24,378 nt of DNA from contig SMXV01000041.1 in NCBI GenBank assembly GCA_004356175.1, forward strand, positions 1-24,378. The letters are read 5' to 3'. The notes below the pieces were generated by a model. The model was not told the DNA's origin and ran no database searches. It saw only the letters and a list, made by a program, of their open reading frames with translations. The position numbers and the translations under genes were made by a program. Positions 8,481 through 21,231 of this stretch are shown one piece after another. Within the stretch, counting starts at the first letter, position 1. Each line of letters begins with the position of its first letter. Origin of the DNA: Acidobacteriota bacterium (GTDB lineage: Bacteria; Actinomycetota; Acidimicrobiia; Spongiisociales; UBA5794).

Positions 8481-9335
8481 ATGGACTGGCTGATTGATCC
8501 CTTCTCACACGCTTTCCAGCTACGGGCTCTCGTAGCAGGCTCACTTGCGGCCGTCGTGTTCGCAGTTGTCGGGACATGGGTCGTGATTCGAGGCATGACG
8601 TTCCTTGGGGACGCGCTTGTGCATGGTGTCATTCCAGGAATCGCGCTTGCAGTGCTGTTCGACTTCAATGTGCTACTCGGCGCAGTCGGCGCGGCCCTCG
8701 TCATGATTGCCGGTATCAATTTTGTACACCGACAGACCGAATTCTCAGAGGACACCGGCATCGGACTGCTCTTCGCTGGAATGCTCTCGGTTGGCGTCAT
8801 CTTGATCTCTACAACACCGAATGCGAGCCGGACGCTCACGGCCATCCTGTTTGGCAACGTTCTCGCGGTATCAGCGTCTGACATTGCCGTGCTTGCCGCT
8901 GTCGCGGTCGTATCGGTGGCCGGAACCATGTTGCTGTTTCGCAGACTGGTTGCCTTGTCGTTCAACGAACGAAAGGCCGAACTCCTCGGCCTCAATCCTC
9001 GCGCCACACACGCCATGCTTCTCGTACTGATCACTTTGGCGATAGTCGGCTCGTTCCAGACGGTTGGAACCCTGCTCGTATTTGGGCTAATGGTCGGCCC
9101 CCCCGCTACGGCCGCTTTGTTGGTGAGGAGAATCCCGACGATGATGATCACAGCGGGCGCAATCGGAGTCTTCTCTGTCGTCACAGGACTCGTAATCAGC
9201 TACCACGCTGACACATCTGGATCGGCGACGATGGCACTCATACCAATCGTTCTGTTCTTCACTGTGCTCGGCGCAAAAACAGTCACGACAAAACAACGTT
9301 CATCGGAGACCTCAGTCAAGAACTCAGCGACGTAG
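8481..9335 (+). CDS. Metal (Zn/Mn) ABC transporter permease, ZnuB/MntB/AztB family
   Basis: DPFSHAFQLRALVAG, FLGDALVHGVIPGIA, SEDTGIGLLF, ILFGNVLAV, SFQTVGTLLVFGLMVGPPATA. Confidence 0.9.
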   Translation: MDWLIDPFSHAFQLRALVAGSLAAVVFAVVGTWVVIRGMTFLGDALVHGVIPGIALAVLFDFNVLLGAVGAALVMIAGINFVHRQTEFSEDTGIGLLFAGMLSVGVILISTTPNASRTLTAILFGNVLAVSASDIAVLAAVAVVSVAGTMLLFRRLVALSFNERKAELLGLNPRATHAMLLVLITLAIVGSFQTVGTLLVFGLMVGPPATAALLVRRIPTMMITAGAIGVFSVVTGLVISYHADTSGSATMALIPIVLFFTVLGAKTVTTKQRSSETSVKNSAT

Positions 9336-9377
9336 GTAACTGCCGCTCTTGCGTGTCACCTGATCGATGTCGTTCGT

Positions 9378-9659
9378 TTAGGAAGCTTTGCGACGCTCAC
9401 GATCACGTAAACGTCGTCGCATGCGTCGGCGCTCGCCCGCGTCCATACCGCCCCACACGCCAGCAGATTGGTTGGTGGTCAGCGCGTATGACAAACACGC
9501 CTCGCGCACAGGGCATTCGGCGCAGATCGCCCGTGCTTCCTGGGTCGCGGACTCTTCTTCTGACGCCGGAAAGAAAATGTCGCTCTCGACACCGCTGCAC
9601 GCCGCAGCTTCTCTCCAATCGGCGTCCGATTCCCACATCAAATCGCTCAACGTAAGCAC
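9378..9659 (-). CDS. whiB: WhiB-family Fe-S transcriptional regulator
   Basis: W-R-x-x-A-A-C, four Cys (C..CAEC.....C), GVWGG turn, Arg-rich tail; GTG start after GAGAAGGGG. Subclass not assignable. Confidence 0.93.
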   Translation of the reverse strand: MLTLSDLMWESDADWREAAACSGVESDIFFPASEEESATQEARAICAECPVREACLSYALTTNQSAGVWGGMDAGERRRMRRRLRDRERRKAS

Positions 9660-9694
9660 GTGTACCGTACCCCTTCTCTATCCGTGAACCATAT

Positions 9695-9720
9695 AACGAC
9701 TATGGCGGTGTGTGTATTCC
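9695..9720 (-). promoter_or_regulatory. ECF sigma promoter GGAAT-N18-GTT (SigH/sigmaR-type) upstream of whiB
   Basis: Minus strand: AAAAAAA GGAAT acacacaccgccatagtc GTT; 35 nt before GTG 9659; A-tract upstream of the -35. Confidence 0.7.
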
Positions 9721-9883
9721 TTTTTTTGCCAACATACTCGGCGGATACGACACAACATCCTCCTGTCGAATTGGCAACCAGCAGAAGGCGGAGAACATGC
9801 CGTCCACATTCGCATAGGAACAGCTAGAGCGCTGCGGCATGGCTACTCTGTGCGCGACAGACCGCGAGTTTTGGGGGAGTACG

Positions 9884-10462
9884 TTGCCACTCACCATCAT
9901 GTATCAGGGAGCCGACACGACCGTCGAGAATGACACGACGGCATTGATTGGTTCCGACGCTGCCTCGACCGTCCGCATAGTCCGGCCAGGCATTTCACGC
10001 AAGCATGCAGTGGTGTCCTTCGACGGGTCGGCGTGGAAGGTCGAGGACGCCGGCTCGCGCAACGGCATATTCGCTGATGGACAGAGAATTCAGACAATCG
10101 AAATTTCGGGTGCAACCACGCTCTACCTCGGGCACCCCACCGACGGTGAAGTCATCTCATTCGTGCCAGTCTCTGAAGGGGACCCAACCTCCACCGCCTC
10201 AATCCAGGACGAAATCGACGAGTTTGTGATTCCGACCGAAACAGCAGCAGCCACAACGTCGCGGCGTGATCGAACCTCTGCTACAAAAGTGCAGCAGACT
10301 TCAGCTGGATCAGCATCCGACGCCGAACTCGCTGCCCTGACCGCTGCCCTCCGGGATCAGATCAGCTCCGTCAAAGGCCTGACATGGTCAGTATGGGCAA
10401 TGATTGCGGTCACGGCGGTGCTTTCAGTTATGACGCTATTTGTAGGGATTCTGGGGAACTGA
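9884..10462 (+). CDS. FHA-domain protein with C-terminal transmembrane anchor
   Basis: IGSD...ISRKHA...VEDAGSRNG FHA pattern; Thr/Ala-rich linker; terminal hydrophobic helix. Start uncertain (TTG 9884 after GGGGAG; ATG 9839 or 9899 are alternatives). Confidence 0.8.
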   Translation: MPLTIMYQGADTTVENDTTALIGSDAASTVRIVRPGISRKHAVVSFDGSAWKVEDAGSRNGIFADGQRIQTIEISGATTLYLGHPTDGEVISFVPVSEGDPTSTASIQDEIDEFVIPTETAAATTSRRDRTSATKVQQTSAGSASDAELAALTAALRDQISSVKGLTWSVWAMIAVTAVLSVMTLFVGILGN

Positions 10463-10471
10463 TGGGGAAGG

Positions 10472-10543
10472 TTTTCAGCTATCAGCTATCAGTCAGAAGG
10501 ATGGGGCCCAGACGTTCGACAGCTAAGAGCCGAAAGCTAGACG
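10472..10543. repeat. Heptamer-repeat imperfect hairpin (CTATCAG units) between convergent genes
   Basis: TTTTCAG CTATCAG CTATCAG (10472-10492) facing degenerate reverse complements CTAAGAG CCGAAAG CTAGACG (10523-10543). Confidence 0.55.
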
Positions 10544-10551
10544 CTTCTTCC

Positions 10552-11403
10552 TCATGTTTCAAGTTCCGGATTTTGTAAAAACTCCAATACCTCATCGGCA
10601 ATTTCGTCGGCGGATGGTAGATCGTCGGGGATCTTGGTGGTCGTACCGACGCTGTTACCAAGACTCTCGATGAAGGCTGCTGCGTCCGTTCGCTGTGCGA
10701 TTATCTCGTCGAGACGTTCAAGCTGAACTCGTGACTCCTCCTCGAGCTCACTGAGATCGAATTCCGCACCGACCTGTACTGCCACCTTCCGCAAAAGAGC
10801 GAGAACTCCTGTGTGATAGGGCCGACCGACATACTGCGGAACCTGGACCCAGTAGCCGATTGCCTCGATTCCGACCTCCTGGATTGCCGTCCGAAAGACG
10901 GTTCCAGCCGACGAAGGCACGACAATCTCATCGAGGAGCAGTTCGTCGCCGCCCTGTAGCAGTCTGGGGTCGGACGCTGTGCAGAAAACAGGGGGAACTT
11001 CGTCATGGCGAATCGGGGTAGGCACCGCCCCGAGGGTCACGAGATGCGACACACCGAAGCGCTGAGCGAGATTCGCAAGTGCGTCGGAAATCGACTCCCA
11101 AGCAAAATCAGGCTCGTTCCCCACCAGTACGAGTACGTCGCGCCCTGAGGGCTTCACATGGATGATCTCCGTCCGCGGCCACGACACAGTGTGCGGCAGT
11201 CCTGGACCAAAGCGAAGAATGGGACGATTCGATCGGTAGTCGAATATGGAGTCGGGATCGAACGTGACAATCGGCTGTCCCCCTTCGGCGAGCCAGTCGG
11301 CCGCGTCGCTCGCTGCTGAAGCCGCGTCGCCCCAGCCAGCAAGCCCGAACACCATGACCGGATCCTCAAGCGGGGGCGGGGTATGGAGGGTGTACAGGCT
11401 CAT
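10552..11403 (-). CDS. PAC2-family protein (proteasome assembly chaperone-like)
   Basis: PVMVFGLAGWGDAASAAS, DYRSNRP, GNEPDFAW, VTLGAVPTPIRH, GYWVQVPQYV pattern of actinobacterial PAC2 proteins. Confidence 0.85.
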   Translation of the reverse strand: MSLYTLHTPPPLEDPVMVFGLAGWGDAASAASDAADWLAEGGQPIVTFDPDSIFDYRSNRPILRFGPGLPHTVSWPRTEIIHVKPSGRDVLVLVGNEPDFAWESISDALANLAQRFGVSHLVTLGAVPTPIRHDEVPPVFCTASDPRLLQGGDELLLDEIVVPSSAGTVFRTAIQEVGIEAIGYWVQVPQYVGRPYHTGVLALLRKVAVQVGAEFDLSELEEESRVQLERLDEIIAQRTDAAAFIESLGNSVGTTTKIPDDLPSADEIADEVLEFLQNPELET

Positions 11404-11418
11404 CGAATCAGGACCGCA

Positions 11419-11907
11419 TCAGAGGTAAAGACCATTGCCGCGTTCGTCGCGCTCTCCAGCTTCAATCGCGCTTTGAAATCGCATCCGTTCGAGCTGCTGC
11501 GATGCCGCCATCTGCTGGGTAATAAGCGATGCCTGGATGCCATGAAAGAGACCTTCAAGCCAACCAACGAGCTGCGCTTGGGCGATACGAAGTTCTGCTT
11601 CCGATGGAGAGGACGTAATCGGAATGAAGACTGCATCGAGTTCTTCCACGAGGTCATCGGATAGAACCTCGCGCAGTTCACCAATCGACTGCTCGTATAT
11701 TGCTACGAGGCGAACCCGGCCTGCCTCGTCGAGAGGTGCAGCCCGTACCTCCTCAAGCATCGCTCGTGTCATCGATGCGATACGTATCAGCTTGGACGGT
11801 TCCGAGACATGGGGCTGAGCCTCGGGCGTGTCTGGTGCAGTATCGTCGTCGGAAATGATCTCAGGTGTCACGGCGTCAGAGCTGGCGGGTTTCGCTTTGG
11901 AATCCAT
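11419..11907 (-). CDS. bpa: Bacterial proteasome activator Bpa/PafE
   Basis: PSKLIRIASMTRAMLEEVRAAPLDEAGR, ELRIAQAQLVGWLEGLFHGIQ, C-terminal GLYL (HbYX). ATG 11907 lies 6 nt after a TATGCT -10. Confidence 0.92.
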   Translation of the reverse strand: MDSKAKPASSDAVTPEIISDDDTAPDTPEAQPHVSEPSKLIRIASMTRAMLEEVRAAPLDEAGRVRLVAIYEQSIGELREVLSDDLVEELDAVFIPITSSPSEAELRIAQAQLVGWLEGLFHGIQASLITQQMAASQQLERMRFQSAIEAGERDERGNGLYL

Positions 11908-11963
11908 CAAACAAGCATACGGCAACATGCGACAGCGAATACGAGGATGGCCAGCCGGTGCGA

Positions 11964-13514
11964 CTAGGTGGTCGCCACGAACCGAATCATGTGCCATCCC
12001 TCTGCGCCGTTTGGACGAGGTGCCACTCGCAACTCGGACTGGGTCTGGCCAGTCCTGTCGGTCGCTCTCACCCTCAGAGTGTGCGGTCCTTCAGATACAT
12101 CTGTCTCAAACGCCCACTGAATCCAGCTATTGGTCGACAACGGCTCTGTCAACTCAGCGGTCTGCCATGGTCCGTCATCCATCTGTACTTCTACCTGTTC
12201 GATTTCGACGGTCGGCGCCCAAGCAACACCGCCGAATACGTATGTACCGATCGGTATACGACCGCCGGACTTGGGTCGATCCACCCGAGACTGCGTCTTG
12301 ATTGGACCTTCTTTCGCCCAGCCGCGGGGAATCCAATATCCGTCGAAACCATCCCACGTCGTGAGTTCAATCTCTGTGATCCACTTTGTAGCGGACACGT
12401 AGCCATAGAGGCCAGGAATCACAAGGCGAGCAGGGAAGCCATGATTGGCTGGAAGAATCTCGCGATTCATACCAACAGCGAGCAGAGCATCGCGTCCGTC
12501 GAACGCAAGCTCGGTAGGGAACCCAGCGGTCCATCCGTCAACCGATCGGCCAACGATCTGGTCGGCGCCAGGCTGTACACCGGCAAGGTTGAGAATGTCG
12601 GGGAGGGGCACGCCCGTCCACAAGGCGTTGCCAACGAGGTGGTCGCCGACTTCGTTCGATACACATGCGAGAGTCGCATATTTCTCGACGAGCGGCATAT
12701 TGAGAATGTCGTCGTACGTGAGCACAACCTCCTTGTCGACCATTCCATGAATGGTCAAGGTCCACTCCTCTGGGTCGATTGCGGGGACAACCAGCGCAGT
12801 GTCGATTCGATAGAACGTAGTGTTTGAGACAACGATCGGCGCAACCAATTTCAGATCGAAATCATTTTCGCCTGTGGGGTCTTTCTCCGCTGTGAAGGGC
12901 ACGGGTAGATCGAGTGCTTCGAGCTGAGCCTCCGCCCTCGATCGTATCTTCGCCCTTCCGACACCGATCATGAGAACTGACACGGTTGCAGCTGCACCGA
13001 CTGCAAGAAGAAGTCTTCGTCGCTCGATGCTCGGAATGTCGCCATCGGTGACATCGCGCTCTTTGGGCTTCGTCCACTCTCTGATGCCATACCAGGTGAG
13101 AAGACCGACGACTCCTGCGATGAGTGTTGAGACGACGACGATTCCGGTCTCAGCAGCGGCGTCACCAAGCTGGGCGGCGATTCCCACAATCGCGAACAGT
13201 GCGAACCCGATAAGGATCGGCCACGGAGACACCGAGGAATTGTTGCCGAGCAGCCAGCCAAACAGAAGCGCGACAATGACCATGCTCAACCCGAGCACGG
13301 CCTTGTCCGCGGTGCCAAAGGTAGAAATGGCGAACGACTCGAGCCATGCAGGGGTCACGTCGACCACATACGAACCGATCGACGAAATCGCTGACGGAAT
13401 CGACGGCGATAGACCGGCAAGTAGCTCGGTGACGCCGAGGGTCACGGCGACACCAGCCGTACCTGCCCACGCAGATCGACGGCGCGCGTTGACTTTGGCC
13501 TCTATCTTCCCCAT
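11964..13514 (-). CDS. Membrane-anchored molybdopterin oxidoreductase (sulfite oxidase/MsrP superfamily)
   Basis: FYRIDTAL, TLACVSN (Mo-ligand Cys), GNALWTGVPL, HGFPARLVIPGLYGYVSATKW, C-terminal dimerisation-type domain; N-terminal TM helices. ATG 13514 avoids overlap with polX. Confidence 0.88.
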   Translation of the reverse strand: MGKIEAKVNARRRSAWAGTAGVAVTLGVTELLAGLSPSIPSAISSIGSYVVDVTPAWLESFAISTFGTADKAVLGLSMVIVALLFGWLLGNNSSVSPWPILIGFALFAIVGIAAQLGDAAAETGIVVVSTLIAGVVGLLTWYGIREWTKPKERDVTDGDIPSIERRRLLLAVGAAATVSVLMIGVGRAKIRSRAEAQLEALDLPVPFTAEKDPTGENDFDLKLVAPIVVSNTTFYRIDTALVVPAIDPEEWTLTIHGMVDKEVVLTYDDILNMPLVEKYATLACVSNEVGDHLVGNALWTGVPLPDILNLAGVQPGADQIVGRSVDGWTAGFPTELAFDGRDALLAVGMNREILPANHGFPARLVIPGLYGYVSATKWITEIELTTWDGFDGYWIPRGWAKEGPIKTQSRVDRPKSGGRIPIGTYVFGGVAWAPTVEIEQVEVQMDDGPWQTAELTEPLSTNSWIQWAFETDVSEGPHTLRVRATDRTGQTQSELRVAPRPNGAEGWHMIRFVATT

Positions 13515-13524
13515 AGACCTAGAT

Positions 13525-13550
13525 AACGACGTTGCTGGTGCATCAGTTCC
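13525..13550 (-). promoter_or_regulatory. ECF sigma promoter GGAAC-N17-CGTT upstream of the Mo-oxidoreductase
   Basis: Minus strand: GGAAC tgatgcaccagcaacgtc GTT, 10 nt before ATG 13514; the polX stop codon lies inside it. Confidence 0.68.
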
Positions 13551-15285
13551 GCCGTTCTCCAACCCAGGCAAGAAAATCATCGAGCTGAAGGCAGTTCACG
13601 ACACGGTGCGACGGGACCCATCCCCTTCGCGCCTGAGCGACACCCCACCGTTGGTGGTTGTACGCAGATACGTGGTGCGCGTCCGTCGAGATTGCGAAGA
13701 GCACGTCGGTGGTTTCCACGGCACGGCGAAGCATCGGAGCCGACAGATCGAGCCTTTTCAGGTGGCTGTTGATCTCAAGCGCTGTGCCAGATGAGGAAGC
13801 GGCGGCGAACACCGCGTCAGCGTCAAATTCGATGCCGCCGCGCTTTCCGAGCATCCGTCCGCTTGGATGCCCAATCACGTTCACAGCGGGATTCTCGATC
13901 GCAGCGAGGAGCCGCTCGGTCTGCTCGGCGACGCTCAGCTCAAAGTACGAGTGAATCGACGCAACCCCAAAGTCGAATCCGTCCAGAAAGGTTGGGCTGT
14001 AGTCGATCGACCCGTCTCTTCCGATGTTGAGCTCGGCACCGTGCAGAATCGTGAGAGTCGGGTACGACGGACGGAGGCTCTCAATCTCTCTCCGTTGCCC
14101 GAGCATACGCTCTTCCGAGAGTCCGTTCATCACGAGGTCCTCTGCGTGGTCCGTGATTGCTATGAACTCCATGCCAAGTTCCACGGCGGCGTCGAGCATG
14201 TCGTGCAGGGAGCTGCGACCGTCCCCTGACCAGCTTGTGTGGACGTGCAGGTCGCCGCGCAACTCCTCTTGAGCAATGGGGGCCGGAAGTGTTCCGTTCT
14301 CGGCCGCAGAAATCTCCCCAGTATCCTCTCTCAGTTCAGGTGCTATCCATGGCAGGTCGAGTTTTGCATAGATGTCCGCCTCAGTTTTCGCAGCAACAAC
14401 GTCCCCGGAGTTGACATCAGACAGCGAGTATTCGTTGAGCGTCATACCCCGTTCGATCGCTCTCGTGCGTAGCGCTATGTTGTGTGCCTTTGAACCGGTG
14501 AAATACATGAGCGCTGCGCCGAGCGACTCAGTTGGTACGACACGAAGATCGACCTGTACCCGATCTCCCATAACGATCGACGCCTTTGTCGTTCCCGATC
14601 CGAGAATGGCTGTCACTCCGGGCAGGTTGACGAACGCCTCAACCACGAGCGATCCTGAGTCGGCGGTGACAAGGATGTCTATGTCGCCGATCGTTTCTGA
14701 GAGCCGTCGCAGACTGCCCGCGTACTCAATTGTCAGTACTCCATCGACGCTTTCGAGTTCAGAAATCACACGGTGGGCGGTCTCCATGGCATCGGCAATC
14801 TCCATGCGAGAATCGTCGGAATGGAGGCCGAGGAGCGAGATTGCCTGTGCGATCTTCTCCTCAGATTTTTCCCCAAGACCGGGCAGGGTTCGTAGCTGCT
14901 GCTTCTCGATTGCGCGAGTCAATCCCTCGACATCAACAACCTGCAGGGAGTCCTGCAACAACAGGACCCTTTTCGGACCGAGACCAGGGATCCGCATCAA
15001 CTCGATCATCGATGGAGGGAAGCGGTCCTTGAGCCGCTCGACCTTCGCAATCTCTCCGGTCGACGAGAACTCCAGTATCTTTCGAGCCGTACTGTCGCCA
15101 ATACCGTCGATTTCGGTGAGTTCTGCGAGAGTCATGTCGCACACACGACTCGCGTTTGATGCGATTGCGTCTACGGCTTTCTCATAGGCTCGTGTCCTGA
15201 ATGATTGGCTCTTTCCGTCTTCGAGCTTCGTGTACGAGATGAGTTCACGCAGCGCCGCCATCACCGATTCGTTTGATGGTGTCAC
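13543..15285 (-). CDS. polX: DNA polymerase X with C-terminal PHP domain
   Basis: FRTRAYEKA, HhH IDGIG/IPGLG, YAGSLRR, GDIDIL and VDLRV catalytic Asp, YFTGSKAHN, PHP motifs GDLHVHTSWSGDG, ITDH, STDAH. Confidence 0.95.
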   Translation of the reverse strand: MTPSNESVMAALRELISYTKLEDGKSQSFRTRAYEKAVDAIASNASRVCDMTLAELTEIDGIGDSTARKILEFSSTGEIAKVERLKDRFPPSMIELMRIPGLGPKRVLLLQDSLQVVDVEGLTRAIEKQQLRTLPGLGEKSEEKIAQAISLLGLHSDDSRMEIADAMETAHRVISELESVDGVLTIEYAGSLRRLSETIGDIDILVTADSGSLVVEAFVNLPGVTAILGSGTTKASIVMGDRVQVDLRVVPTESLGAALMYFTGSKAHNIALRTRAIERGMTLNEYSLSDVNSGDVVAAKTEADIYAKLDLPWIAPELREDTGEISAAENGTLPAPIAQEELRGDLHVHTSWSGDGRSSLHDMLDAAVELGMEFIAITDHAEDLVMNGLSEERMLGQRREIESLRPSYPTLTILHGAELNIGRDGSIDYSPTFLDGFDFGVASIHSYFELSVAEQTERLLAAIENPAVNVIGHPSGRMLGKRGGIEFDADAVFAAASSSGTALEINSHLKRLDLSAPMLRRAVETTDVLFAISTDAHHVSAYNHQRWGVAQARRGWVPSHRVVNCLQLDDFLAWVGERRN

Positions 15286-16214
15286 AGCGACAAGAGTGAG
15301 TAGACGCCGAACGTGCCGATCAGGAGCAATCCCTCCACACGGCTTATGCGCTGCGAGGAATACGCGAACACGCCAGCAAACACGGCCGAGAGAACCATGA
15401 TCGAGATCAACACAGGCGGCACCGCGGACACGCTGCCCGGGCCGAGAATCGCAGCGACACCGGCAACCCCAAGAGAGTTGAAGACGTTCGATCCGAGCAC
15501 GTTCCCGAGAACAAGGTCCGATGCCCCTCTGCGCGCGCCCGCGAACGCAGCCGAGAGTTCCGGCAGGCTTGTGCCCACGCCGGTGATGAGACCCATGAAC
15601 ACAACGGACAAACCAGCTGATTCGCCGATTGACAGGACGCCGTTGAGCAGTACTCGACCAGCGACGACTGTGGCAGCAAGTGCGACGAGGCCAATAGCAA
15701 CGTCGCGCCCAATATGTCGAGGCTCCTCGACAGTGCCCGGTTCGTGTTCGTCTGGTTCGGCGGCTCCGTCATTTGCCCAGTAGATGAGTAATCCGATGGC
15801 CACGAACATCCCAGCGACAAGACCGACTCCCTCCGAGACCGATACGGTGCCGTCTGCCAAGACGGCCGCAAAGGCGCAAACAGAACCGAGCATGAGTAAT
15901 CCTTCACGTCTCACGACGGAGTGCGTTGTCACAAGGACGGATATCAGCGCTGCCGAACCGAGGACGAGCGTTAGATTTGCTGTGTTCGAAGCAAGCACGT
16001 TGCTCATCGCGAGTCCAGTTTCGCCCTTCGACGCCGCCACGATCGATACGACAAACTCTGGCACAGACGTGCCAAACCCAACGATGACAGCACCGACAAT
16101 GACGGCTGAGACATTGAGCGCCTTCGCGAGGTTCACGGCGGACACAACAAGCCGATCGGCCGCCACCACGAGCACAATGAGACCACCAATGATCAGCAAG
16201 ATGTCGTACGCCAC
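15282..16214 (-). CDS. Ca2+/cation (Ca/Na) antiporter, YrbG-like
   Basis: Two alpha repeats GFGTSVPE...ASN and GVGTSLPE...GSN; GTGA overlap with the polX start. Confidence 0.92.
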   Translation of the reverse strand: MAYDILLIIGGLIVLVVAADRLVVSAVNLAKALNVSAVIVGAVIVGFGTSVPEFVVSIVAASKGETGLAMSNVLASNTANLTLVLGSAALISVLVTTHSVVRREGLLMLGSVCAFAAVLADGTVSVSEGVGLVAGMFVAIGLLIYWANDGAAEPDEHEPGTVEEPRHIGRDVAIGLVALAATVVAGRVLLNGVLSIGESAGLSVVFMGLITGVGTSLPELSAAFAGARRGASDLVLGNVLGSNVFNSLGVAGVAAILGPGSVSAVPPVLISIMVLSAVFAGVFAYSSQRISRVEGLLLIGTFGVYSLLSL

Positions 16215-16346
16215 GTCTGTACCTCCGTGGGGCGATGGTACCGCGTATCGATATTGCTCCAGTGATCGAACGGTCTGTAGCAGATGGCGACGGACTCATA
16301 CCGACGTACAAGTCGTGAACCACAGACCTGAGTAGGCTCTACCACC

Positions 16347-17729
16347 GTGGCAGGCATCGATGAACCGATACATGAAACGTGGCTGGGCGGTGACTCGCTG
16401 GTTCCGAAACGCTTCGTACGGCCTGCCATCGAATTCACCCGCGTAGAGGCAGCGGGTGGGGGCATTCTTCTCGTCACCGCGGTAATTGCATTGATCTGGG
16501 CAAACTCGATGTGGTACGAGTCATATTTCACGTTGTTCAATGCCCCCATTGAGGTCGCTTTCGGCCCTGTTCACATTGCCGAGTCATTCAAGGACATCAT
16601 CAACGACGGCCTCATGGTGGTGTTCTTCTTCGTCGTCGGCCTTGAAATCAAACGAGAGCTCGCCGTTGGCGAGCTGAACTCGCTCAAAAAGGCATCTCTC
16701 CCAGTAATTGCGGCGCTTGGAGGCATGATCGTCCCAGCATTGATCTACGTTGCGTTTGTGGTCGGAACCGGTGATCCCGAAGCCATCAAAGGTTGGGGGG
16801 TGCCAATGGCGACAGACATCGCGTTCTCTGTTGGCATTGTTGCGCTCCTGGGCTCGCGCATATCGGTGAGCGCAAAACTCTTTCTCCTCGCCCTTGCGAT
16901 CGTCGATGACATCGGCGCAATCCTCGTCATCGCCGTCTTCTACACAAGCGAAATCGACTTCGGCTACCTCGCGTTTGCTGCAGCGCTGCTAATCGCTATT
17001 CACTTCGCCAAGAAGGCAGGCGTTTCAAGTCTGTTGTTCTATGTGCCCGTCGCCTTCGTCATCTGGTTCTTGTTTCTCGAATCAGGTGTGCACGCAACCA
17101 TTGCCGGCGTCATTCTCGGACTCATGACACCGGCCTACGCCAAATACTCAGATGAAACGTTCAGACAGAAGATGGTCAGAATATTGAGCCGATGGGACAC
17201 CAACAGAGCCTCCCCCGATTCAGCAGACCGACTCGATGCCGATGCCCGAGATCTCGCGCGCGTATCCATTGCTTCGATTTCGCCGCTCAACCGTCTTGAG
17301 CACGCGCTCCATCCTTGGTCGTCCTTCCTGATTGTCCCACTGTTTGCCCTGGCAAATGCGGGTGTCCGATTCGTAGGAAACGAAGCAAGTTTTGCCGAGC
17401 AGGTAACCGCGCCAGTTGCCCTCGGGGTCGCCATTGGACTTCTCGTCGGAAAACCGTTGGGAGTCATTGCTGCAACATGGCTTGGGGTCAAACTCGGACT
17501 CGGTGTACTGCCAAATCGGACCTCGTTCGCCACGGTGCTTGGACTTGGCATGCTCGCTGGCGTTGGCTTCACGGTGGCCCTCTTTATCACCGAGTTGGCA
17601 TTCACCAGTGAATTGCTAACGGCAGAGGCCAAACTCGGGATCTTCATCGGGTCCATTGTCTCGGGCCTTGCGGGCTACGCCGTGCTTAGGATCTCCAACC
17701 CACTGAGACCTGAGTCGCCGGAGATCTGA
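16347..17729 (+). CDS. nhaA: Na+/H+ antiporter NhaA
   Basis: INDGLM..FFF.VGLEIKRE, GWGVPMATDIAF, LAIVDDIGAILVIAVFY, GKPLG, AGVGFTVALFI. GTG start 8 nt after a TAGGCT -10. Confidence 0.95.
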   Translation: MAGIDEPIHETWLGGDSLVPKRFVRPAIEFTRVEAAGGGILLVTAVIALIWANSMWYESYFTLFNAPIEVAFGPVHIAESFKDIINDGLMVVFFFVVGLEIKRELAVGELNSLKKASLPVIAALGGMIVPALIYVAFVVGTGDPEAIKGWGVPMATDIAFSVGIVALLGSRISVSAKLFLLALAIVDDIGAILVIAVFYTSEIDFGYLAFAAALLIAIHFAKKAGVSSLLFYVPVAFVIWFLFLESGVHATIAGVILGLMTPAYAKYSDETFRQKMVRILSRWDTNRASPDSADRLDADARDLARVSIASISPLNRLEHALHPWSSFLIVPLFALANAGVRFVGNEASFAEQVTAPVALGVAIGLLVGKPLGVIAATWLGVKLGLGVLPNRTSFATVLGLGMLAGVGFTVALFITELAFTSELLTAEAKLGIFIGSIVSGLAGYAVLRISNPLRPESPEI

Positions 17730-17751
17730 CATTTCGATTCCGATGAGACCG

Positions 17752-17777
17752 GGAACATTTGTCAACGCCACGTAGTT
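17752..17777 (+). promoter_or_regulatory. ECF sigma promoter GGAAC-N18-GTT upstream of the DUF547 gene
   Basis: GGAAC atttgtcaacgccacgta GTT, 8 nt before GTG 17786; overlaps an alternative TAGTTT -10 at 17773-17778. Confidence 0.62.
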
Positions 17778-17785
17778 TCTCCTCC

Positions 17786-18565
17786 GTGAACACGAAACCG
17801 AACGCTCTTCTCATCGGGTGGCGTATGCTCTACGCTCGCCGCGTGGCTGCGCCCGATCCATCGGGCACCGCGGTTGTAGATCACACTCTGCTGGCTGAAG
17901 TTCTCAAGGCCGTTTCGGCTGACGGCGTCAGGGCGCTTCCGTCGGCGCTCTCGACACTCGGACGGTACCGCGACGAACTTGCCGCGATCAACCCAGACGG
18001 CCTCGACGCAGACGAAGCGCTCGCGTATTGGATCAATCTCTACAACGCGGGAGCGCTCTCCCGCGCGGGTGACGCTCGATCTCATGATTACGCATCTGTG
18101 CTCAGAGTGCCTGGCGCGTTTTTCGGCGTGTGGGCAACCGTCCAAGGCGTTACTTTGTCCCTCGACGACATCGAGCACGGAAAGATTCGGCGCTTCAAGG
18201 ATCCGCGGATACATGGGGCGTTGGTGTGCGGTTCTGTGTCATGCCCAACGCTCAGCGGAACACCCTTTGTTGGAAGAGATGTCGACCAGCAGCTCGACAC
18301 GCAGATGCGCTCGTATCTCAGTAACGGCGGCGCGGCGATCGATCGGACCACGAATACGATTCGTCTGTCACGGATTCTGAAGTGGTATGGGGCCGATTTT
18401 CAGCGGCCCAACGCAATGCCAACGCTTCGTCCGGCGCGAGCATCGAAAATGGCCGAAGCCATCCGGCCGTGGCTCGCAGAAGATGACGCGGACTACGTGG
18501 AGCTCCACCGGCCAAAGATCGTCTTCTCCTCCTACGACTGGGGACTTGGCTGCTCAATCACATGA
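17786..18565 (+). CDS. DUF547 domain protein
   Basis: LAYWINLYNA, LSLDDIEHG, DPRIHGALVCGSVSCP, LSRILKWYGADF, YDW. GTG 17786 preferred as start. Confidence 0.88.
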   Translation: MNTKPNALLIGWRMLYARRVAAPDPSGTAVVDHTLLAEVLKAVSADGVRALPSALSTLGRYRDELAAINPDGLDADEALAYWINLYNAGALSRAGDARSHDYASVLRVPGAFFGVWATVQGVTLSLDDIEHGKIRRFKDPRIHGALVCGSVSCPTLSGTPFVGRDVDQQLDTQMRSYLSNGGAAIDRTTNTIRLSRILKWYGADFQRPNAMPTLRPARASKMAEAIRPWLAEDDADYVELHRPKIVFSSYDWGLGCSIT

Positions 18566-19185
18566 GCCGCCCCCTGAGCAGAAGCAACCACGCCGAAGGT
18601 GAACACGGCTGTAGCGACGAGCGCAGCGGCCACGTCGTATGGGAGCACCAGACGCATGAGGTCGGACGATGACACAACCCATTCGCCATTTGGTCCGAAC
18701 CCGACATTGTGGAGATATCGACCGATCGACCATACGCACACAAGACCGATCGCCAAACCTCCGACCACGGCAGGGCCCCGTCCCCACGCTCGGTATGCCC
18801 CTATGGTGACTGCCGCGACCACCCACGCAATGTCGAGCGCCGAAATCAACTGAAGAAACTGAGTTGACGGATCGAACCTCATCGCTGCTGACGACGCGAG
18901 GGTGACAAGACCGACCGTTCCGGTGACGAGAACAACCAGAGCGACTCCACTTGCGACGGTCTCCGTGATGTTGCCCCAGCCCGAACCGTTGAACCATCCC
19001 GAGGAACCAAGGGACACGACCATTTGGCTAAGCACGATTCCGAAAAGCACCAGCCCACTCAGCTGAACGATGAATCCTCTCAGCGGATCAGAACGAATGT
19101 CGACAAGTAGCAGCGGTAGCGAGACGAGCAGCCCACCAACAAGCCAAGGCACGGTCACGAGAATAGCCTTCTCTATGGGTGCCAT
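18532..19185 (-). CDS. Hypothetical polytopic membrane protein (about 6 TM)
   Basis: Long hydrophobic ORF; ATG 19185 is 1 nt after the methyltransferase stop; 3' end overlaps DUF547 by 34 bp. No family recognised. Confidence 0.75.
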   Translation of the reverse strand: MAPIEKAILVTVPWLVGGLLVSLPLLLVDIRSDPLRGFIVQLSGLVLFGIVLSQMVVSLGSSGWFNGSGWGNITETVASGVALVVLVTGTVGLVTLASSAAMRFDPSTQFLQLISALDIAWVVAAVTIGAYRAWGRGPAVVGGLAIGLVCVWSIGRYLHNVGFGPNGEWVVSSSDLMRLVLPYDVAAALVATAVFTFGVVASAQGAAHVIEQPSPQS

Positions 19186-19186
19186 A

Positions 19187-20065
19187 TCAGACTCGGACCG
19201 AGCGTTTTCCCGTGTGTCCTTCATGGATTCGGCGATTCGCAATCCCGATGTATTCGGCGTTGAGCTCGTAGCCAACGAAGTGCCGGTTCGACTCAACCGC
19301 CGCGACGGCTGTTGTGCCCGACCCAAGGAATGGGTCGAGAATCAGATCGTTCTCGAAGGTATACAACTCAATGAGTCTGCTGGGAAGCTCTACAGGGAAT
19401 GGCGCAGGATGCCCAACTCTGCGTGCCGACTCTGGCAGTATGTTCCATATCGACACAGTTGCCTCAAGAAACTGCTCCTTTGTGATCGTGTCCTCGCCCT
19501 TGCGAACCCGAGCGTACGAACCTTTCGATCCGACGATGACGTATTCGTGAATGTCTCGCAACGTCGGATTCTTCGCCGACTGCCACGAGCCCCATGCACA
19601 CGATCCGCCCGCTGATTTCGCCTTCTGCCAGATAATCTCGCCACGCAGATCGAATCCCGTCTCTGTCAACAACGCAGAGACGTACTGGTTGAGGGGAATG
19701 TATGGCTTGCGGCCAAGATTGGCGACGTTGACCGCGACCCGGCCACCTGGCTCAAGGACACGGAACGTCTCAGCGAAAACCTGACGTAACAGGTCGAGGT
19801 ACTCGTCGATGCCGAGATCTTCGTCGTACTCCTTGCCCACGTTGTATGGAGGGGAGGTGACCATCAGAGCAACACAGTTATCGGGGATCTGGTGCATGTC
19901 TACGGAGGATGATTCGAAAATCTGGTCGATCACTGATGCCGGCGGATCGGCAACTTCACCCATGTCCAAGGTGGTACCGGCAATGTGCATCCGACGCCCA
20001 TAGTACACCGACGCATCATGCCCCTCGCGTTTTCCGGAACCGAAACTCGCTGTGTTCGTGGCCAC
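19187..20065 (-). CDS. Site-specific DNA amino-methyltransferase (N4-C/N6-A, beta class), no cognate endonuclease seen
   Basis: Catalytic motif IV VTSPPY precedes SAM-binding motif I DPFLGSGTT; HPAPFP; RBS AGGAGG before the GTG. Confidence 0.92.
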   Translation of the reverse strand: MATNTASFGSGKREGHDASVYYGRRMHIAGTTLDMGEVADPPASVIDQIFESSSVDMHQIPDNCVALMVTSPPYNVGKEYDEDLGIDEYLDLLRQVFAETFRVLEPGGRVAVNVANLGRKPYIPLNQYVSALLTETGFDLRGEIIWQKAKSAGGSCAWGSWQSAKNPTLRDIHEYVIVGSKGSYARVRKGEDTITKEQFLEATVSIWNILPESARRVGHPAPFPVELPSRLIELYTFENDLILDPFLGSGTTAVAAVESNRHFVGYELNAEYIGIANRRIHEGHTGKRSVRV

Positions 20066-20131
20066 GATTGCCTCCTGGACAGAACGGTAGTAGCAGGACC
20101 CACCAGAATGGTGGCAAAGGGAACGAGCGAA

Positions 20132-20241
20132 GGTTCTAGTTTCTAGCCAGCACAGATTCCAGAACGGTTCCGCAAGAATGGCTCAGCACTGCCCTGAAAG
20201 CTGAGGGCTGATAGCTCTCCGCTGACGAGAAACCAAGAACT
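20132..20241. repeat. Heptamer-repeat element with outer imperfect inverted repeat
   Basis: CTGAAAG CTGAGGG CTGATAG CTCTCCG CTGACGA (20194-20228); outer arms GGTTCTAGTTTCTAGCCAGC (20132-20151) / GCTGACGAGAAACCAAGAACT (20221-20241). Confidence 0.55.
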
Positions 20242-20255
20242 GGAGGCTTCCTCCC

Positions 20256-21080
20256 CTACTTCACTACCGCCTTGTACGACCCGAGATTGATGAGCGATGC
20301 TGCGCTGGCGGGTGGGGGGTCGATGACGTAGCGCAGACCCTCCTCGCCTGGTGGGTGCACAAGGTCGATGAAGAAACGGTAATTCCATGCAACCCCGGCC
20401 GGGCGGGACTCGATTCGAGTCAGGTTCGCGCCCCGTAACCCAAGCTCCGTGAGAACAAGTGCGAGTGACCCAGGGGTGTGGGATCCGGTGACGACAATGG
20501 TCGTCTTGTCATCATCAGGATCCACAACAGGTTCGCCGACGGCAAGAACAACGAACCGTGTCGTGTTGTCATCGCGGTCGAGTACGTGCTCAAGCAGAAT
20601 GTCGAGTCCGTGGGCCGCTCCCGCCCGGGGCGGTGCAAGCGCTGCCACAGATTTGTCGCCTGCTTCAGCGACCTGTCGGACGGCTCCCGCGGTGTCATGT
20701 GTCGGCACGACCTCGACGCCAAGTTCGAGCAGGGCGTGCTCGGCCTGAGCAAGCGCCTGGGGGTGGGAGCGAACCTCGCGAACGTCCTCAAGCTTGGCAC
20801 CGGGGACTCCATGGAGTGCGTGGCGCACCTCGACGAGATGCTCAGCAAGGATCGAGAATCTGACATGGCTGTCGTCGCCTGGCAAGCGGTCAAGGACCGG
20901 CAAAACGGAACCCGTGGTCGAATTCTCAACCGGAAGCACGAGACGGTCGACCTCGTCTGCTTCGAGGGCATCGAATGCTGCCGCGAACCCCCTGTACCCA
21001 ACGAAATCGCCATCGGGAAACAGCTCGGTCGCTGCCCTATAGCTATAACTGTGCGGTTCGCCCTGGTAGCCGATAATCAT
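20256..21080 (-). CDS. pheA: Prephenate dehydratase with ACT domain
   Basis: IGYQGEPHSYS, LPVENSTTGSV, SHPQALAQ, NTTRF, NLTRIESRP, YRFFIDL. True start ATG 21080; the upstream part of the track ORF is not PDT-like. Confidence 0.93.
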   Translation of the reverse strand: MIIGYQGEPHSYSYRAATELFPDGDFVGYRGFAAAFDALEADEVDRLVLPVENSTTGSVLPVLDRLPGDDSHVRFSILAEHLVEVRHALHGVPGAKLEDVREVRSHPQALAQAEHALLELGVEVVPTHDTAGAVRQVAEAGDKSVAALAPPRAGAAHGLDILLEHVLDRDDNTTRFVVLAVGEPVVDPDDDKTTIVVTGSHTPGSLALVLTELGLRGANLTRIESRPAGVAWNYRFFIDLVHPPGEEGLRYVIDPPPASAASLINLGSYKAVVK

Positions 21081-21104
21081 GACCCGAGACAGTATCAGAT
21101 ACAG

Positions 21105-21130
21105 AACGAAACCAACCAGCGACAGGTTCC
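21105..21130 (-). promoter_or_regulatory. ECF sigma promoter GGAAC-N17-CGTT upstream of pheA
   Basis: Minus strand: GGAAC ctgtcgctggttggtttc GTT, 24 nt before ATG 21080; a separate TACTGT -10 sits 8 nt before the ATG. Confidence 0.6.
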
Positions 21131-21231
21131 CGAAATGTCGGCAACGCCCACCCAATCGCTTTGCCCTTGTGTCCCGTTTCGTTGATCGTGCAGCGGAGCA
21201 TCCCCGGGGACGTCCGTGCATAGGTGCCTTT

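What the first reader, a model, noticed from the sequence alone, without database searches (positions are those of the whole stretch)
9695..21130. Four ECF-sigma (GGAAY-N18-GTT) promoters define a candidate stress regulon across unlinked genes
Seen: exact GGAA(C/T)-N18-GTT matches in the correct orientation 8-35 nt before the starts of whiB (9695-9720 -), the Mo-oxidoreductase (13525-13550 -), DUF547 (17752-17777 +) and pheA (21105-21130 -); three of them have CGTT. A rough estimate at 60% GC gives about 2e-5 per position, or about 0.03 expected over ~22 upstream 60-nt windows, versus 4 observed. I scanned only upstream regions, by eye. Established: this is the consensus of Streptomyces sigmaR and mycobacterial SigH/SigE (thiol-oxidative, heat and envelope stress). 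Inference: one ECF sigma factor co-regulates an Fe-S redox sensor, a Mo-oxidoreductase, a two-Cys unknown protein and a Phe biosynthesis enzyme, and this links two poorly characterised genes to stress response.
Basis: partly seen in the sequence, partly recalled or inferred. Interest (0 to 1): 0.75.

Follow-up and report, generated by a model that had tools for sequence, protein, structure and literature searches.

The report
Conserved stress-sigma promoters in an Acidimicrobiia genome
Three of the four short promoter-like motifs are real, evolutionarily conserved start signals for a SigE/SigH-type stress sigma factor in an uncultured marine-sediment actinobacterium. This is an ordinary kind of regulon, but it ties the unknown protein family DUF547 to oxidative or envelope stress; the fourth motif, in front of pheA, is probably a chance match.

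Summary
All four GGAAY-N18-GTT matches exist at the stated coordinates. They are the only matches in the window, and all are intergenic and co-oriented with the next gene (35, 10, 8 and 24 nt before whiB, the Mo-oxidoreductase, DUF547 and pheA).

- **Genome-wide enrichment.** The genome is a 61%-complete Acidimicrobiia MAG. Upstream co-oriented matches number 15 at spacer 18, against a mean of 2.3 at 22 other spacers.
- **Other targets.** These include msrA, ccdA, a CxxC redoxin lipoprotein, htrA, lgt, dnaK, nifU and a SigE-like ECF sigma gene.
- **Conservation in relatives.** The motif is kept upstream of orthologues of whiB (22/28), DUF547 (19/25; 29/43 in a wider set, 0/31 outside the group), the Mo-oxidoreductase (12/29, including all same-genus) and msrA (17/21). 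It is absent upstream of pheA (0/28).
- **Which sigma.** The SigE-like gene carries the motif in 30/30 relatives. The SigH-like gene never does (0/30).

Verdict: this is a real ECF regulon of a known kind, most likely read by the autoregulated SigE-like factor. The pheA site is probably a chance match. The useful new element is DUF547 (invariant Cx4C, no solved fold relative) as a core member. No TSS data could be obtained. The scan has reported similar ECF regulons in other genomes.

The parts
9695..9720 (-). ECF promoter of whiB: GGAATA-N17-CGTT, with -35 at 9720-9716 and GTT at 9697-9695, 35 nt before the GTG
   Evidence: Exact match and sequence. GGAAY-N18-GTT is kept in 22/28 orthologue upstreams across the order, plus 2 with N19. 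Other spacers give 0-4.
9378..9659 (-). whiB gene (93 aa, four Cys, WhiB1-like)
   Evidence: Pfam Whib, 84 bits. The best solved relative is M. tuberculosis WhiB1, 68.6 bits. The gene appears monocistronic because the next gene is on the other strand.
13525..13550 (-). ECF promoter of the Mo-oxidoreductase: GGAACT-N17-CGTT, 10 nt before the ATG. The -35 overlaps the last codons and the stop of polX.
   Evidence: Kept in all 9 same-genus orthologues and in 3 other genera at N18 (12/29), including three loci where polX is not the upstream gene.
11964..13514 (-). Membrane-anchored sulfite-oxidase-family molybdoenzyme (516 aa): four predicted TM segments, an RRR motif, then a SorA-like domain with a single Cys
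   Evidence: Pfam Oxidored_molyb, 148 bits. NCBIfam SoxC, SorA and MsrP models are all far below their cut-offs. PDB SorA, 82 bits. Hydropathy analysis.
17752..17777 (+). ECF promoter of DUF547: GGAACA-N17-AGTT, 8 nt before the GTG (leaderless geometry)
   Evidence: Kept in 19/25 orthologues among relatives and in 29/43 Acidimicrobiia-type orthologues from public genomes, against 0/31 homologues of other phyla.
17786..18565 (+). DUF547 protein (259 aa, no signal peptide or TM segment, invariant C148-x4-C153-P)
   Evidence: Pfam DUF547, 71 bits. Invariant columns in 66 homologues. AlphaFold2 model with pLDDT 96 has no convincing fold match.
21105..21130 (-). GGAACC-N17-CGTT match 24 nt before the pheA ATG. 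It is specific to this genome and is probably a chance or very recent site.
   Evidence: Absent upstream of 28/28 pheA orthologues at N18 and at every other spacer tested.
21089..21094 (-). TACTGT, a TANNNT -10-like hexamer 8 nt before the pheA ATG. It is the likely housekeeping leaderless promoter of pheA.
   Evidence: Sequence. pheA orthologues carry TAGGGT, TATCGT or TACCCT at the same position. The sigma assignment is an inference.
20256..21080 (-). pheA (prephenate dehydratase with ACT domain)
   Evidence: Pfam PDT 164 bits and ACT. NCBIfam prephenate dehydratase models, below cut-off. A terminator-like hairpin lies directly after the stop, at 20254-20242.
10552..11907 (-). bpa (proteasome activator) and a PAC2-family gene, downstream of the Mo-oxidoreductase on the same strand. 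Co-transcription is possible but uncertain.
   Evidence: Pfam BPA and PAC2. The gap is 56 nt with no terminator-like site. bpa follows the Mo-oxidoreductase in only 6 of the 29 relative loci (7 of 30 counting G000's own locus).

Best explanation
The motifs before whiB, the membrane-anchored molybdoenzyme and DUF547 are promoters of a SigE/SigH-type ECF sigma factor regulon in an uncultured marine-sediment member of the class Acidimicrobiia.

**Proposed mechanism.** The most likely cognate factor is the SigE-like ECF sigma on contig C66. Its own gene carries the same promoter, which gives positive autoregulation. It is followed by an anti-sigma factor with an HxxxCxxC zinc-finger domain and one transmembrane helix. 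On oxidative or envelope stress the anti-sigma releases the sigma factor. RNA polymerase carrying it then starts transcription about 9-10 nt downstream of the GTT.

**Expected transcripts.** For DUF547, msrA and the molybdoenzyme this position coincides with, or lies within a few bases of, the start codon, so their mRNAs would be leaderless or nearly so. whiB would have a 35-nt leader with a ribosome-binding site.

**What is co-induced.**
- A WhiB1-like Fe-S regulator.
- MsrA.
- DUF547 (a cytoplasmic protein with an invariant Cx4C).
- Envelope maintenance proteins: CcdA, a CxxC redoxin lipoprotein, HtrA, Lgt and the molybdoenzyme.

**pheA.** The pheA match is not part of the conserved regulon. 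pheA is most likely transcribed from a conserved housekeeping-type leaderless promoter.

**Shown versus inferred.** Shown: the motif, its spacing-specific enrichment, its conservation, and the presence of the sigma and anti-sigma genes. Inferred: which sigma reads the sites, the transcription start positions, and the inducing signal.
For: 1. **Spacing-specific enrichment.** There are 15 upstream co-oriented matches at N18, against a mean of 2.3 (0-8) at 22 other spacers.

2. **Extended consensus.** The sites give gGGAAC-N17-CGTTg. This equals the published SigE consensus GGAACY-N16/17-CGTT and SigH consensus GGAAY-N18/19-GTT (PMC5430705; PMC3489674).

3. **Other targets in the genome.** These are msrA, ccdA/dsbD, an AhpC/TSA redoxin, htrA, dnaK, nifU, lgt and the ECF sigma gene itself.

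4. **Conservation upstream of orthologues.** The signal peaks only at N18: whiB 22/28, DUF547 19/25, molybdoenzyme 12/29 (9/9 in the genus), msrA 17/21, htrA 6/15. Spacers and flanks diverge. DUF547 in a wider set is 29/43, against 0/31 in other phyla.

5. **The sigma genes.** The SigE-like gene has the motif 4-20 nt upstream (overlapping the extrapolated start in one relative) in 27/30 relatives at N18 and in the other 3 at N19. The SigH-like gene has it in 0/30.

6. **Sigma and anti-sigma identities.** The C66 sigma best matches SigE (NF007229 at 202 bits; PDB 9m9d at 159 bits). The C7 sigma passes the SigH_actino cut-off. The anti-sigma has HLDTCVEC and one TM helix.

7. **Precedent.** C. 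glutamicum SigH controls the WhiB-like genes whcA and whcE (PMC3489674).
Against: - No transcription start or expression data exist. The only RNA-labelled public runs are whole-genome-amplified libraries with flat, genome-like contig coverage.
- The SigH-like factor could read the same sites, as mycobacterial SigH and SigE do. Several core targets (msrA, a whiB, dnaK) are classic SigH/SigR targets.
- The SigE-like sigma scores below the NCBIfam SigE cut-off (202 against 265 bits). Its anti-sigma is membrane-anchored, unlike mycobacterial RseA.
- My gene calls are home-made. They missed whiB, which I added by hand. The genome is only 61% complete.
- The molybdoenzyme site is conserved mainly within one genus, and its -35 overlaps the polX C-terminal codons.
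- Relatives are not independent samples.
Confidence: 0.8

Rival explanations
1. The sites are read by the SigH/SigR-like ECF sigma (contig C7, with an 82-aa RsrA-like anti-sigma), either instead of or together with the SigE-like factor. On this reading the regulon is a classical cytoplasmic thiol-oxidative stress response, and the SigE-like gene is merely one of its targets, as sigE is for SigH in M. tuberculosis.
For: The C7 sigma passes the SigH_actino cut-off (258 against 251.55 bits) and sits next to a small zf-HC2 protein. It is present in 41/41 genomes searched. msrA, dnaK, a whiB and thiol-redox genes are typical SigH/SigR targets, and published SigH and SigE consensus sequences overlap (PMC5430705; PMC3489674). 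C. glutamicum sigH is itself transcribed from SigA promoters, so lack of autoregulation does not exclude it.
Against: No motif lies upstream of the SigH-like gene, or within 600 nt downstream of its start (which covers the anti-sigma gene), in 30/30 relatives; one relative has only an N17 match there. The SigE-like gene always has it. No thioredoxin or thioredoxin-reductase target was seen in this 61%-complete genome.
Confidence: 0.3
2. All four matches are chance occurrences of a short degenerate pattern in AT-richer intergenic DNA and have no regulatory function.
For: The whole-window count is only weakly above shuffles: 4 against 1.18, with 4 of 100 shuffles reaching 4. About 2.3 upstream matches per spacer length are expected genome-wide. 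The pheA site is not conserved.
Against: The excess occurs only at N18 (15 against 2.3). The motif is conserved at the same position upstream of whiB, DUF547, the molybdoenzyme, msrA and the sigma gene across genera and families, while the surrounding sequence diverges. The target functions are coherent.
Confidence: 0.03
3. The pheA site is a recently gained but functional promoter, so that in this species Phe biosynthesis is stress-induced.
For: It matches the full extended consensus (gGGAACC-N17-CGTT) in the right orientation, 24 nt before the ATG. ECF promoters are defined largely by these bases, so RNA polymerase with the cognate sigma may well initiate there. The prior probability of a chance match in any single upstream region is low, about 0.3% by my estimate from base composition.
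Against: The motif is absent in 28/28 orthologues, including 8 same-genus ones, whereas the other sites are kept in 100% of same-genus genomes. About 2 of the 15 genome-wide hits are expected by chance. A conserved TANNNT leaderless-type promoter lies between it and the ATG.
Confidence: 0.2
4. The conserved GGAAC and GTT blocks reflect something other than a promoter. Possibilities are coding constraint from N-terminal extensions or the polX C-terminus, or the binding site of a transcription factor.
For: The longest ORFs of DUF547 and the molybdoenzyme extend over the motifs. The molybdoenzyme -35 encodes the last Arg-Asn of PolX.
Against: My start model places the starts downstream of the motifs. 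Upstream open-frame lengths vary between relatives. The 18-nt spacer diverges freely while two short blocks at fixed spacing are kept. The molybdoenzyme motif persists in three loci without polX upstream. The same bipartite motif precedes unrelated genes and an ECF sigma gene.
Confidence: 0.03

Closest known systems
Mycobacterial SigE (ECF14) and its promoters, GGAACY-N16/17-CGTT
   Same: The promoter consensus and spacing are the same (PMC5430705). The autoregulated sigma here best matches SigE by NCBIfam and PDB sequence. It has a cognate anti-sigma with an HxxxCxxC zinc-finger motif. htrA is among the targets.
   Different: The sigma is below the SigE equivalog cut-off (202 against 265 bits). 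The anti-sigma has a predicted transmembrane helix and a second, Cys-less RseA_N-like repeat, whereas mycobacterial RseA is described as soluble (PMC8999054). htrA is not adjacent to the sigma operon. The organism is in the class Acidimicrobiia, where I found no described regulon.
SigH (Mycobacterium, Corynebacterium) and SigR (Streptomyces) thiol-oxidative stress regulons (ECF12), GGAAY-N18/19-GTT
   Same: The core promoter is identical. The targets overlap: msrA, dnaK and thiol-redox proteins. There is precedent for SigH control of WhiB-like genes, namely whcA and whcE in C. glutamicum (PMC3489674). A SigH-like sigma with an RsrA-like anti-sigma is present in the genome.
   Different: The SigH-like operon has no such promoter in any of 30 relatives. 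No trxB, trxC or mycothiol genes were found among the targets in this incomplete genome. Many targets are envelope proteins.
E. coli RpoE-RseA-RseB envelope stress system
   Same: The anti-sigma is membrane-spanning with an RseA_N-like N-terminus (25.9 bits, cut-off 24). It is followed by a gene for a signal-peptide protein with faint MucB_RseB_C similarity (17 bits, below cut-off). HtrA/DegP-type protease is a target.
   Different: The RseB-like similarity is below threshold and was not followed up. The zinc-finger motif is absent from E. coli RseA, and the promoter consensus differs (from my own knowledge of the RpoE consensus, not tested here).
Plant class IV glutaredoxins (GRX-like 1 and 2) with a fused DUF547 domain
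   Same: Both contain the DUF547 domain. In plants it is fused to a glutaredoxin domain (PMC13621322). This independently links DUF547 to thiol redox biology.
   Different: The protein here is a stand-alone 259-aa DUF547 with no GRX or DEP domain. Neither the plant nor the bacterial proteins have been characterised biochemically.

Membership tests
SigE/SigH/SigR-type ECF promoter | -35 GGAAY and -10 GTT separated by 18 (or 19) nt | tested here: met
   There are four exact matches. The extended consensus over 15 genome sites is gGGAAC-N17-CGTT. Published consensus sequences are in PMC5430705 and PMC3489674.
SigE/SigH/SigR-type ECF promoter | More frequent upstream of genes, in the right orientation, than expected, and only at the functional spacing | tested here: met
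   There are 15 at N18 against a mean of 2.3 (0-8) at spacers 8-30. Coding-region counts are flat.
SigE/SigH/SigR-type ECF promoter | Conserved upstream of orthologous genes | tested here: met
   whiB 22/28, DUF547 19/25 and 29/43, Mo-oxidoreductase 12/29. Not met for pheA: 0/28.
SigE/SigH/SigR-type ECF promoter | Cognate ECF sigma gene present and preceded by the same promoter (autoregulation) | tested here: met
   The SigE-like gene on C66 has the motif 12 nt before its ATG, and so do 30/30 relatives (27 at N18, 3 at N19).
SigE/SigH/SigR-type ECF promoter | Transcription start a few nt downstream of the GTT, dependent on the sigma and induced by stress | not testable with these tools
   The organism is uncultured. 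The RNA-labelled runs are WGA libraries held as contigs with genome-like coverage.
ECF14 (M. tuberculosis SigE with RseA) | Sigma scores as a SigE equivalog | tested here: inconclusive
   NF007229 is the best hit at 202 bits, but the cut-off is 265. The best PDB match is SigE at 159 bits, against SigH at 104 bits.
ECF14 (M. tuberculosis SigE with RseA) | Soluble zinc-finger (ZAS) anti-sigma factor | tested here: not met
   The ZAS motif HLDTCVEC is present, but one strong hydrophobic segment (residues 145-163, mean hydropathy 2.5) predicts a membrane anchor.
ECF12 (SigH/SigR with RshA/RsrA) | Sigma of the SigH_actino family with an adjacent small ZAS anti-sigma | tested here: met
   The C7 sigma scores 258 bits on TIGR02947 (cut-off 251.55). 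The adjacent 82-aa protein has zf-HC2 (34.9 bits). The RsrA model scores 46 bits, below its 62.5 cut-off.
ECF12 (SigH/SigR with RshA/RsrA) | SigH/R-type promoter in the sigH-rshA operon (before sigH, or before rshA as in C. glutamicum) | tested here: not met
   0/30 relatives have GGAAY-N18-GTT within 250 nt upstream or 600 nt downstream of the sigH-like start. They have TANNNT about 8 nt before the ATG instead.
WhiB-like (Wbl) Fe-S transcription factors | Whib domain with four cluster-binding Cys and a GVWGG turn followed by a basic tail | tested here: met
   Pfam Whib, 84 bits. Four Cys, GVWGG and an Arg-rich C-terminus are visible in the translation. The nearest solved relative is WhiB1.
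Sulfite oxidase family molybdoenzymes | Oxidored_molyb domain with a Mo-coordinating Cys, and membership of a named subfamily (SorA, SoxC or MsrP) | tested here: inconclusive
   The domain is present (148 bits) and the protein has a single Cys (its alignment to the Mo ligand was not checked). SoxC (122 bits), SorA (115 bits) and MsrP (51 bits) are all far below their cut-offs of 420, 600 and 207.
DUF547 (PF04784) | Match to the Pfam model above its gathering score | tested here: met
   71.1 bits against a cut-off of 27. C148-x4-C153-P is invariant in 66 homologues from many phyla.

The most novel reading that the evidence does not exclude
DUF547 is a core effector of an oxidative or envelope stress response. 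It would be a cytoplasmic enzyme or sensor with a previously unsolved fold that uses its universally invariant Cx4C-Pro motif (together with invariant His, Arg, Asn and Tyr residues) for thiol or metal chemistry. Its co-regulation with MsrA and a WhiB1-like regulator across a whole order of the class Acidimicrobiia (the 40 relatives searched, with matching results in other public Acidimicrobiia MAGs), together with its fusion to glutaredoxin in plants, would give the first functional handle on this widespread family.
Probability: 0.4. Interest if true: 0.55.

Novelty: new member of a known kind. Interest (0 to 1): 0.35.

Why it matters
ECF sigma regulons of the SigE/SigH/SigR type are textbook biology in Mycobacterium, Corynebacterium and Streptomyces, so finding one in another actinobacterial class is expected. 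There are three points of value.

- **A first target list for this group.** I found no described regulon for these uncultured marine-sediment Acidimicrobiia. The core set conserved across the order is the sigma gene itself, a WhiB1-like regulator, MsrA and DUF547.
- **A testable context for DUF547.** This family has no known function, no solved structure and an invariant Cx4C motif. It also occurs fused to glutaredoxin in plants.
- **A caution about motif matches.** A perfect consensus match in the right place (pheA) can still be lineage-specific and probably fortuitous. Only comparison with relatives separates it from the real sites.

Tried and rejected
1. **TSS evidence from public runs.** The sequence is present in many marine-sediment metagenomes. 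Two runs are labelled metatranscriptomic, but they are WGA libraries held as contigs with flat, genome-like coverage and no read ends, so they are uninformative.

2. **Relaxed scan of the genome.** I allowed one mismatch in the -35 while requiring CGTT. This gave 9 hits at N18 against about 4 at other spacers, too weak to extend the regulon.

3. **SigH-like sigma as the autoregulated factor.** No motif is present upstream in G000 or in 30 relatives.

4. **Function of DUF547 from structure.** The AlphaFold2 model is confident (pLDDT 96). Foldseek against PDB and Swiss-Prot AFDB gave nothing with E below 0.2 or TM above 0.3. VIA-align against 48,161 chains gave only generic helical-hairpin matches (Z up to 8 over about 85 residues). 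PDB sequence search found nothing.

5. **Mo-oxidoreductase, bpa and PAC2 as a conserved operon.** bpa follows the molybdoenzyme in only 6 of the 29 relative loci (7 of 30 counting G000's own locus), so this is not a conserved unit.

6. **Kim et al. 2012 (PMC4546429), the conserved SigR regulon.** The paper is not held. Whether DUF547 or this Mo-enzyme appears in the Streptomyces regulon could not be checked.

7. **A strong motif match on contig C117.** It points antisense into purM with no gene downstream. I left it as an unexplained or chance hit.

Full report
**Observation**

Reading the sequence and calling genes gives the following layout; starts come from my codon, ribosome-binding-site and start-codon model, except whiB, which my caller missed and I added by hand, and identities from Pfam.

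| Gene | Start codon | Distance from last T of GTT |
|---|---|---|
| whiB | GTG 9659 | 35 nt |
| Sulfite-oxidase-family molybdoenzyme | ATG 13514 | 10 nt |
| DUF547 | GTG 17786 | 8 nt |
| pheA | ATG 21080 | 24 nt |

Three of the four have CGTT. Over the whole window the count is only mildly unusual: 4 against 1.18 expected, with 4 of 100 shuffles reaching 4. However, all four lie in the 8.7% of the window that is intergenic, and all are co-oriented with the next gene. Using other spacer lengths as an internal control, 0.14 such matches are expected (P about 1e-5).

**Genome-wide test**

The window is a whole contig of a 1.08-Mb, 136-contig, 61%-complete MAG. I called genes with a simple codon-usage model (whiB was missed and added by hand). 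I then counted GGAAY-Nx-GTT matches that are intergenic, co-oriented and within 150 nt of a start, for x = 8 to 30.

- The count is 15 at x = 18, against a mean of 2.3 (range 0-8) elsewhere, including 1 at x = 17 and 2 at x = 19.
- Counts inside coding sequence are flat (P about 3e-8).
- About two of the fifteen are therefore expected to be chance.
- The sites share an extended consensus, gGGAAC-N17-CGTTg.
- This matches the published mycobacterial SigE (GGAACY-N16/17-CGTT) and SigH (GGAAY-N18/19-GTT) consensus sequences (PMC5430705), and the Corynebacterium and Streptomyces equivalents (PMC3489674).

The other genes behind the motif are:
- msrA (9 nt)
- ccdA/dsbD
- dnaK
- an AhpC/TSA-type redoxin
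- htrA (9 nt)
- a NifU-like gene
- lgt
- a short-chain dehydrogenase
- a DUF3179 gene
- an ECF sigma gene (12 nt)

Hydropathy and N-terminal sequences show that many of these are envelope proteins:
- The redoxin (WCFPC) and DUF3179 have lipoprotein signal sequences.
- HtrA has one TM segment.
- CcdA and Lgt are membrane proteins.
- The molybdoenzyme has four TM segments and an RRR motif before its catalytic domain.

MsrA, NifU, DnaK, WhiB and DUF547 look cytoplasmic.

**Conservation**

The organism belongs to the class Acidimicrobiia, judging from the record titles of the closest DUF547 loci. Its DNA is found in marine-sediment metagenomes.

I located orthologues in 40 relatives: 10 of the same genus, 14 of the same family and 16 of the same order. 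I then scanned the 150 nt upstream of each start.

| Gene | Orthologue upstreams with the motif at N18 |
|---|---|
| whiB | 22/28 |
| DUF547 | 19/25 |
| Molybdoenzyme | 12/29 (all 9 same-genus plus 3 other genera) |
| pheA | 0/28 |

- Every other spacer gives 0-2 (once 4), and the antisense strand gives 0-1.
- The 18-nt spacer and the flanks differ freely between species, while the two short blocks stay fixed.
- The molybdoenzyme -35 overlaps the last two codons of polX, but the motif is also kept in three loci where polX is not upstream.
- In a wider set of public genomes, 29 of 43 Acidimicrobiia-type DUF547 genes carry the motif, mostly 6-18 nt before the start. None of 31 DUF547 homologues from other phyla do.
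- msrA (17/21) and htrA (6/15, five of them in the genus) behave likewise.
- Counts that include the unpublished genome G038 are one N19 match before its molybdoenzyme gene and one N19 match before its SigE-like gene. No conclusion depends on them.

**The pheA site**

None of 28 pheA orthologues has the motif, at any spacer. This includes 8 of the same genus, with up to 88% protein identity. Instead they share a TANNNT hexamer (TAGGGT, TATCGT or TACCCT) about 8 nt before the ATG. G000 keeps TACTGT at 21094-21089. I infer that this is the conserved promoter, of a housekeeping leaderless type.

About two chance matches are expected genome-wide, and the real sites are kept in every same-genus genome. 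I therefore rate the pheA match as probably fortuitous (about 0.75). A recently gained functional site is the alternative (about 0.2). A perfect consensus may still fire in vivo, and only an assay can tell.

**Which sigma factor**

The genome has at least nine sigma-70-region-2 genes and two zf-HC2 anti-sigma genes.

*The SigE-like pair (contig C66).*
- The sigma gene (9905-10423) is preceded by the motif.
- Its best matches are mycobacterial SigE: NF007229 at 202 bits (cut-off 265), and PDB 9m9d at 159 bits against SigH at 104 bits.
- Its downstream partner (P0001) has a Cys-less RseA_N-like repeat, a second repeat with the zinc-finger motif HLDTCVEC, and one strong TM segment.
- The next gene encodes a signal-peptide protein with faint, sub-threshold MucB_RseB_C similarity.

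*The SigH-like pair (contig C7).*
- The sigma (18077-18640) passes the SigH_actino cut-off.
- It sits next to an 82-aa zf-HC2 protein.

*Comparison across relatives.*
- The SigE-like gene carries the motif 4-20 nt upstream (overlapping the extrapolated start in one relative) in 27/30 at N18 and in the other three at N19.
- The SigH-like gene never does (0/30). It has a TANNNT about 8 nt before its ATG.

Autoregulation is the usual signature of the cognate ECF factor, so I assign the regulon to the SigE-like factor (about 0.6). Mycobacterial SigH and SigE read overlapping promoters, and C. glutamicum sigH is itself SigA-transcribed. The SigH-like factor therefore cannot be excluded as a second or alternative reader.

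**The two poorly characterised proteins**

*DUF547.*
- It has no signal peptide.
- C148-x4-C153-P is invariant across 66 homologues from many phyla, as are N84, Y86, N87, R135, R141 and H143.
- A confident AlphaFold2 model (pLDDT 96) has no convincing match in PDB or Swiss-Prot AFDB.
- I found no bacterial literature on it.
- In plants the domain is fused to a glutaredoxin (PMC13621322).
- Its place in the core regulon beside MsrA and a WhiB1-like regulator supports a thiol or oxidative-damage role. That role is an inference.

*The molybdoenzyme.*
- It is a distinct, membrane-anchored branch of the sulfite-oxidase family.
- It falls below the cut-offs of the SoxC, SorA and MsrP models.
- Its regulon membership is mainly a feature of this genus.

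**Limits**

- No transcription data could be obtained. The two RNA-labelled runs are amplified libraries with genome-like coverage.
- Gene calls are my own.
- The genome is incomplete.
- Relatives are not independent samples.

**Comparison with what is known, and verdict**

This works like the SigE/SigH/SigR regulons of Mycobacterium, Corynebacterium and Streptomyces (ECF14 and ECF12; PMC8999054). There is even a precedent for SigH control of WhiB-like genes.

It differs in four ways:
- The lineage.
- The membrane-anchored zinc-finger anti-sigma.
- The lack of a motif on the SigH-like operon.
- The membership of DUF547.

The scan has already reported similar ECF regulons in other genomes. This is a new member of a known kind.

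Noticed in passing
G000 contig C66 8374-10423 (locus L016): The SigE-like operon encodes an anti-sigma with two anti-sigma-domain repeats: the first is Cys-less and RseA_N-like, the second has HLDTCVEC. It also has one TM helix. The next gene encodes a signal-peptide protein with faint MucB_RseB_C similarity (17 bits, below cut-off). This could be a hybrid of the actinobacterial zinc-finger type and the proteobacterial RseA-RseB type.
   Followed up: partly
window 9378-18565: Three conserved regulon promoters (four counting pheA) lie within one 12-kb block, whose gene order whiB ... Mo-oxidoreductase ... DUF547 ... pheA is syntenic in relatives such as G005:C28, G012:C6 and G016:C6. The window is 2.25% of the assembly but holds 4 of the 15 sites (binomial P about 3e-4, or 3e-3 without pheA). 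The selection is post hoc, so this is only a hint of a stress gene neighbourhood.
   Followed up: partly
window 21089-21094; loci L061-L089 and L258-L287: pheA and the SigH-like sigma genes of this order carry a TANNNT hexamer about 8 nt before the ATG and no Shine-Dalgarno sequence. This suggests that leaderless housekeeping transcripts are common in this lineage.
   Followed up: no
window 10552-11907: bpa (proteasome activator) and a PAC2-family gene follow the Mo-oxidoreductase on the same strand, with a 56-nt gap and no terminator-like hairpin. They might be co-transcribed from the ECF promoter in this species. The linkage is present in only 6 of the 29 relative loci (7 of 30 counting G000's own locus).
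   Followed up: partly
G000 contig C117 4345-4370 (-) (locus L022): A very good motif match (gGGAACG-N17-GCGTTg) sits in a 60-nt gap between purM and the next gene, but it points antisense into purM and has no ORF downstream. It may be chance or an antisense/small RNA promoter.
   Followed up: partly
loci L154, L164, L165, L170, L175, L183, L192: Contigs carrying Acidimicrobiia-type DUF547 genes (46-57% identity), four of the seven with the ECF motif, belong to MAGs labelled Kiloniellales, Trueperaceae, Gammaproteobacteria, Gemmatimonadota or Acidobacteria. These are probably mis-binned contigs or mislabelled bins.
   Followed up: no
window 9000-21500 in runs X16 and X20: Runs labelled METATRANSCRIPTOMIC WGA hold about 80% of the words of a 10-kb stretch with flat depth across genes and intergenic regions, like the DNA runs. 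They should not be used as evidence of transcription.
   Followed up: yes
G000 contig C66 11843-12061 (-): A second WhiB paralogue lies about 1.4 kb upstream of the SigE-like sigma gene. The same neighbourhood is seen in several relatives, for example G016:C6, G007:C232 and G004:C13.
   Followed up: no
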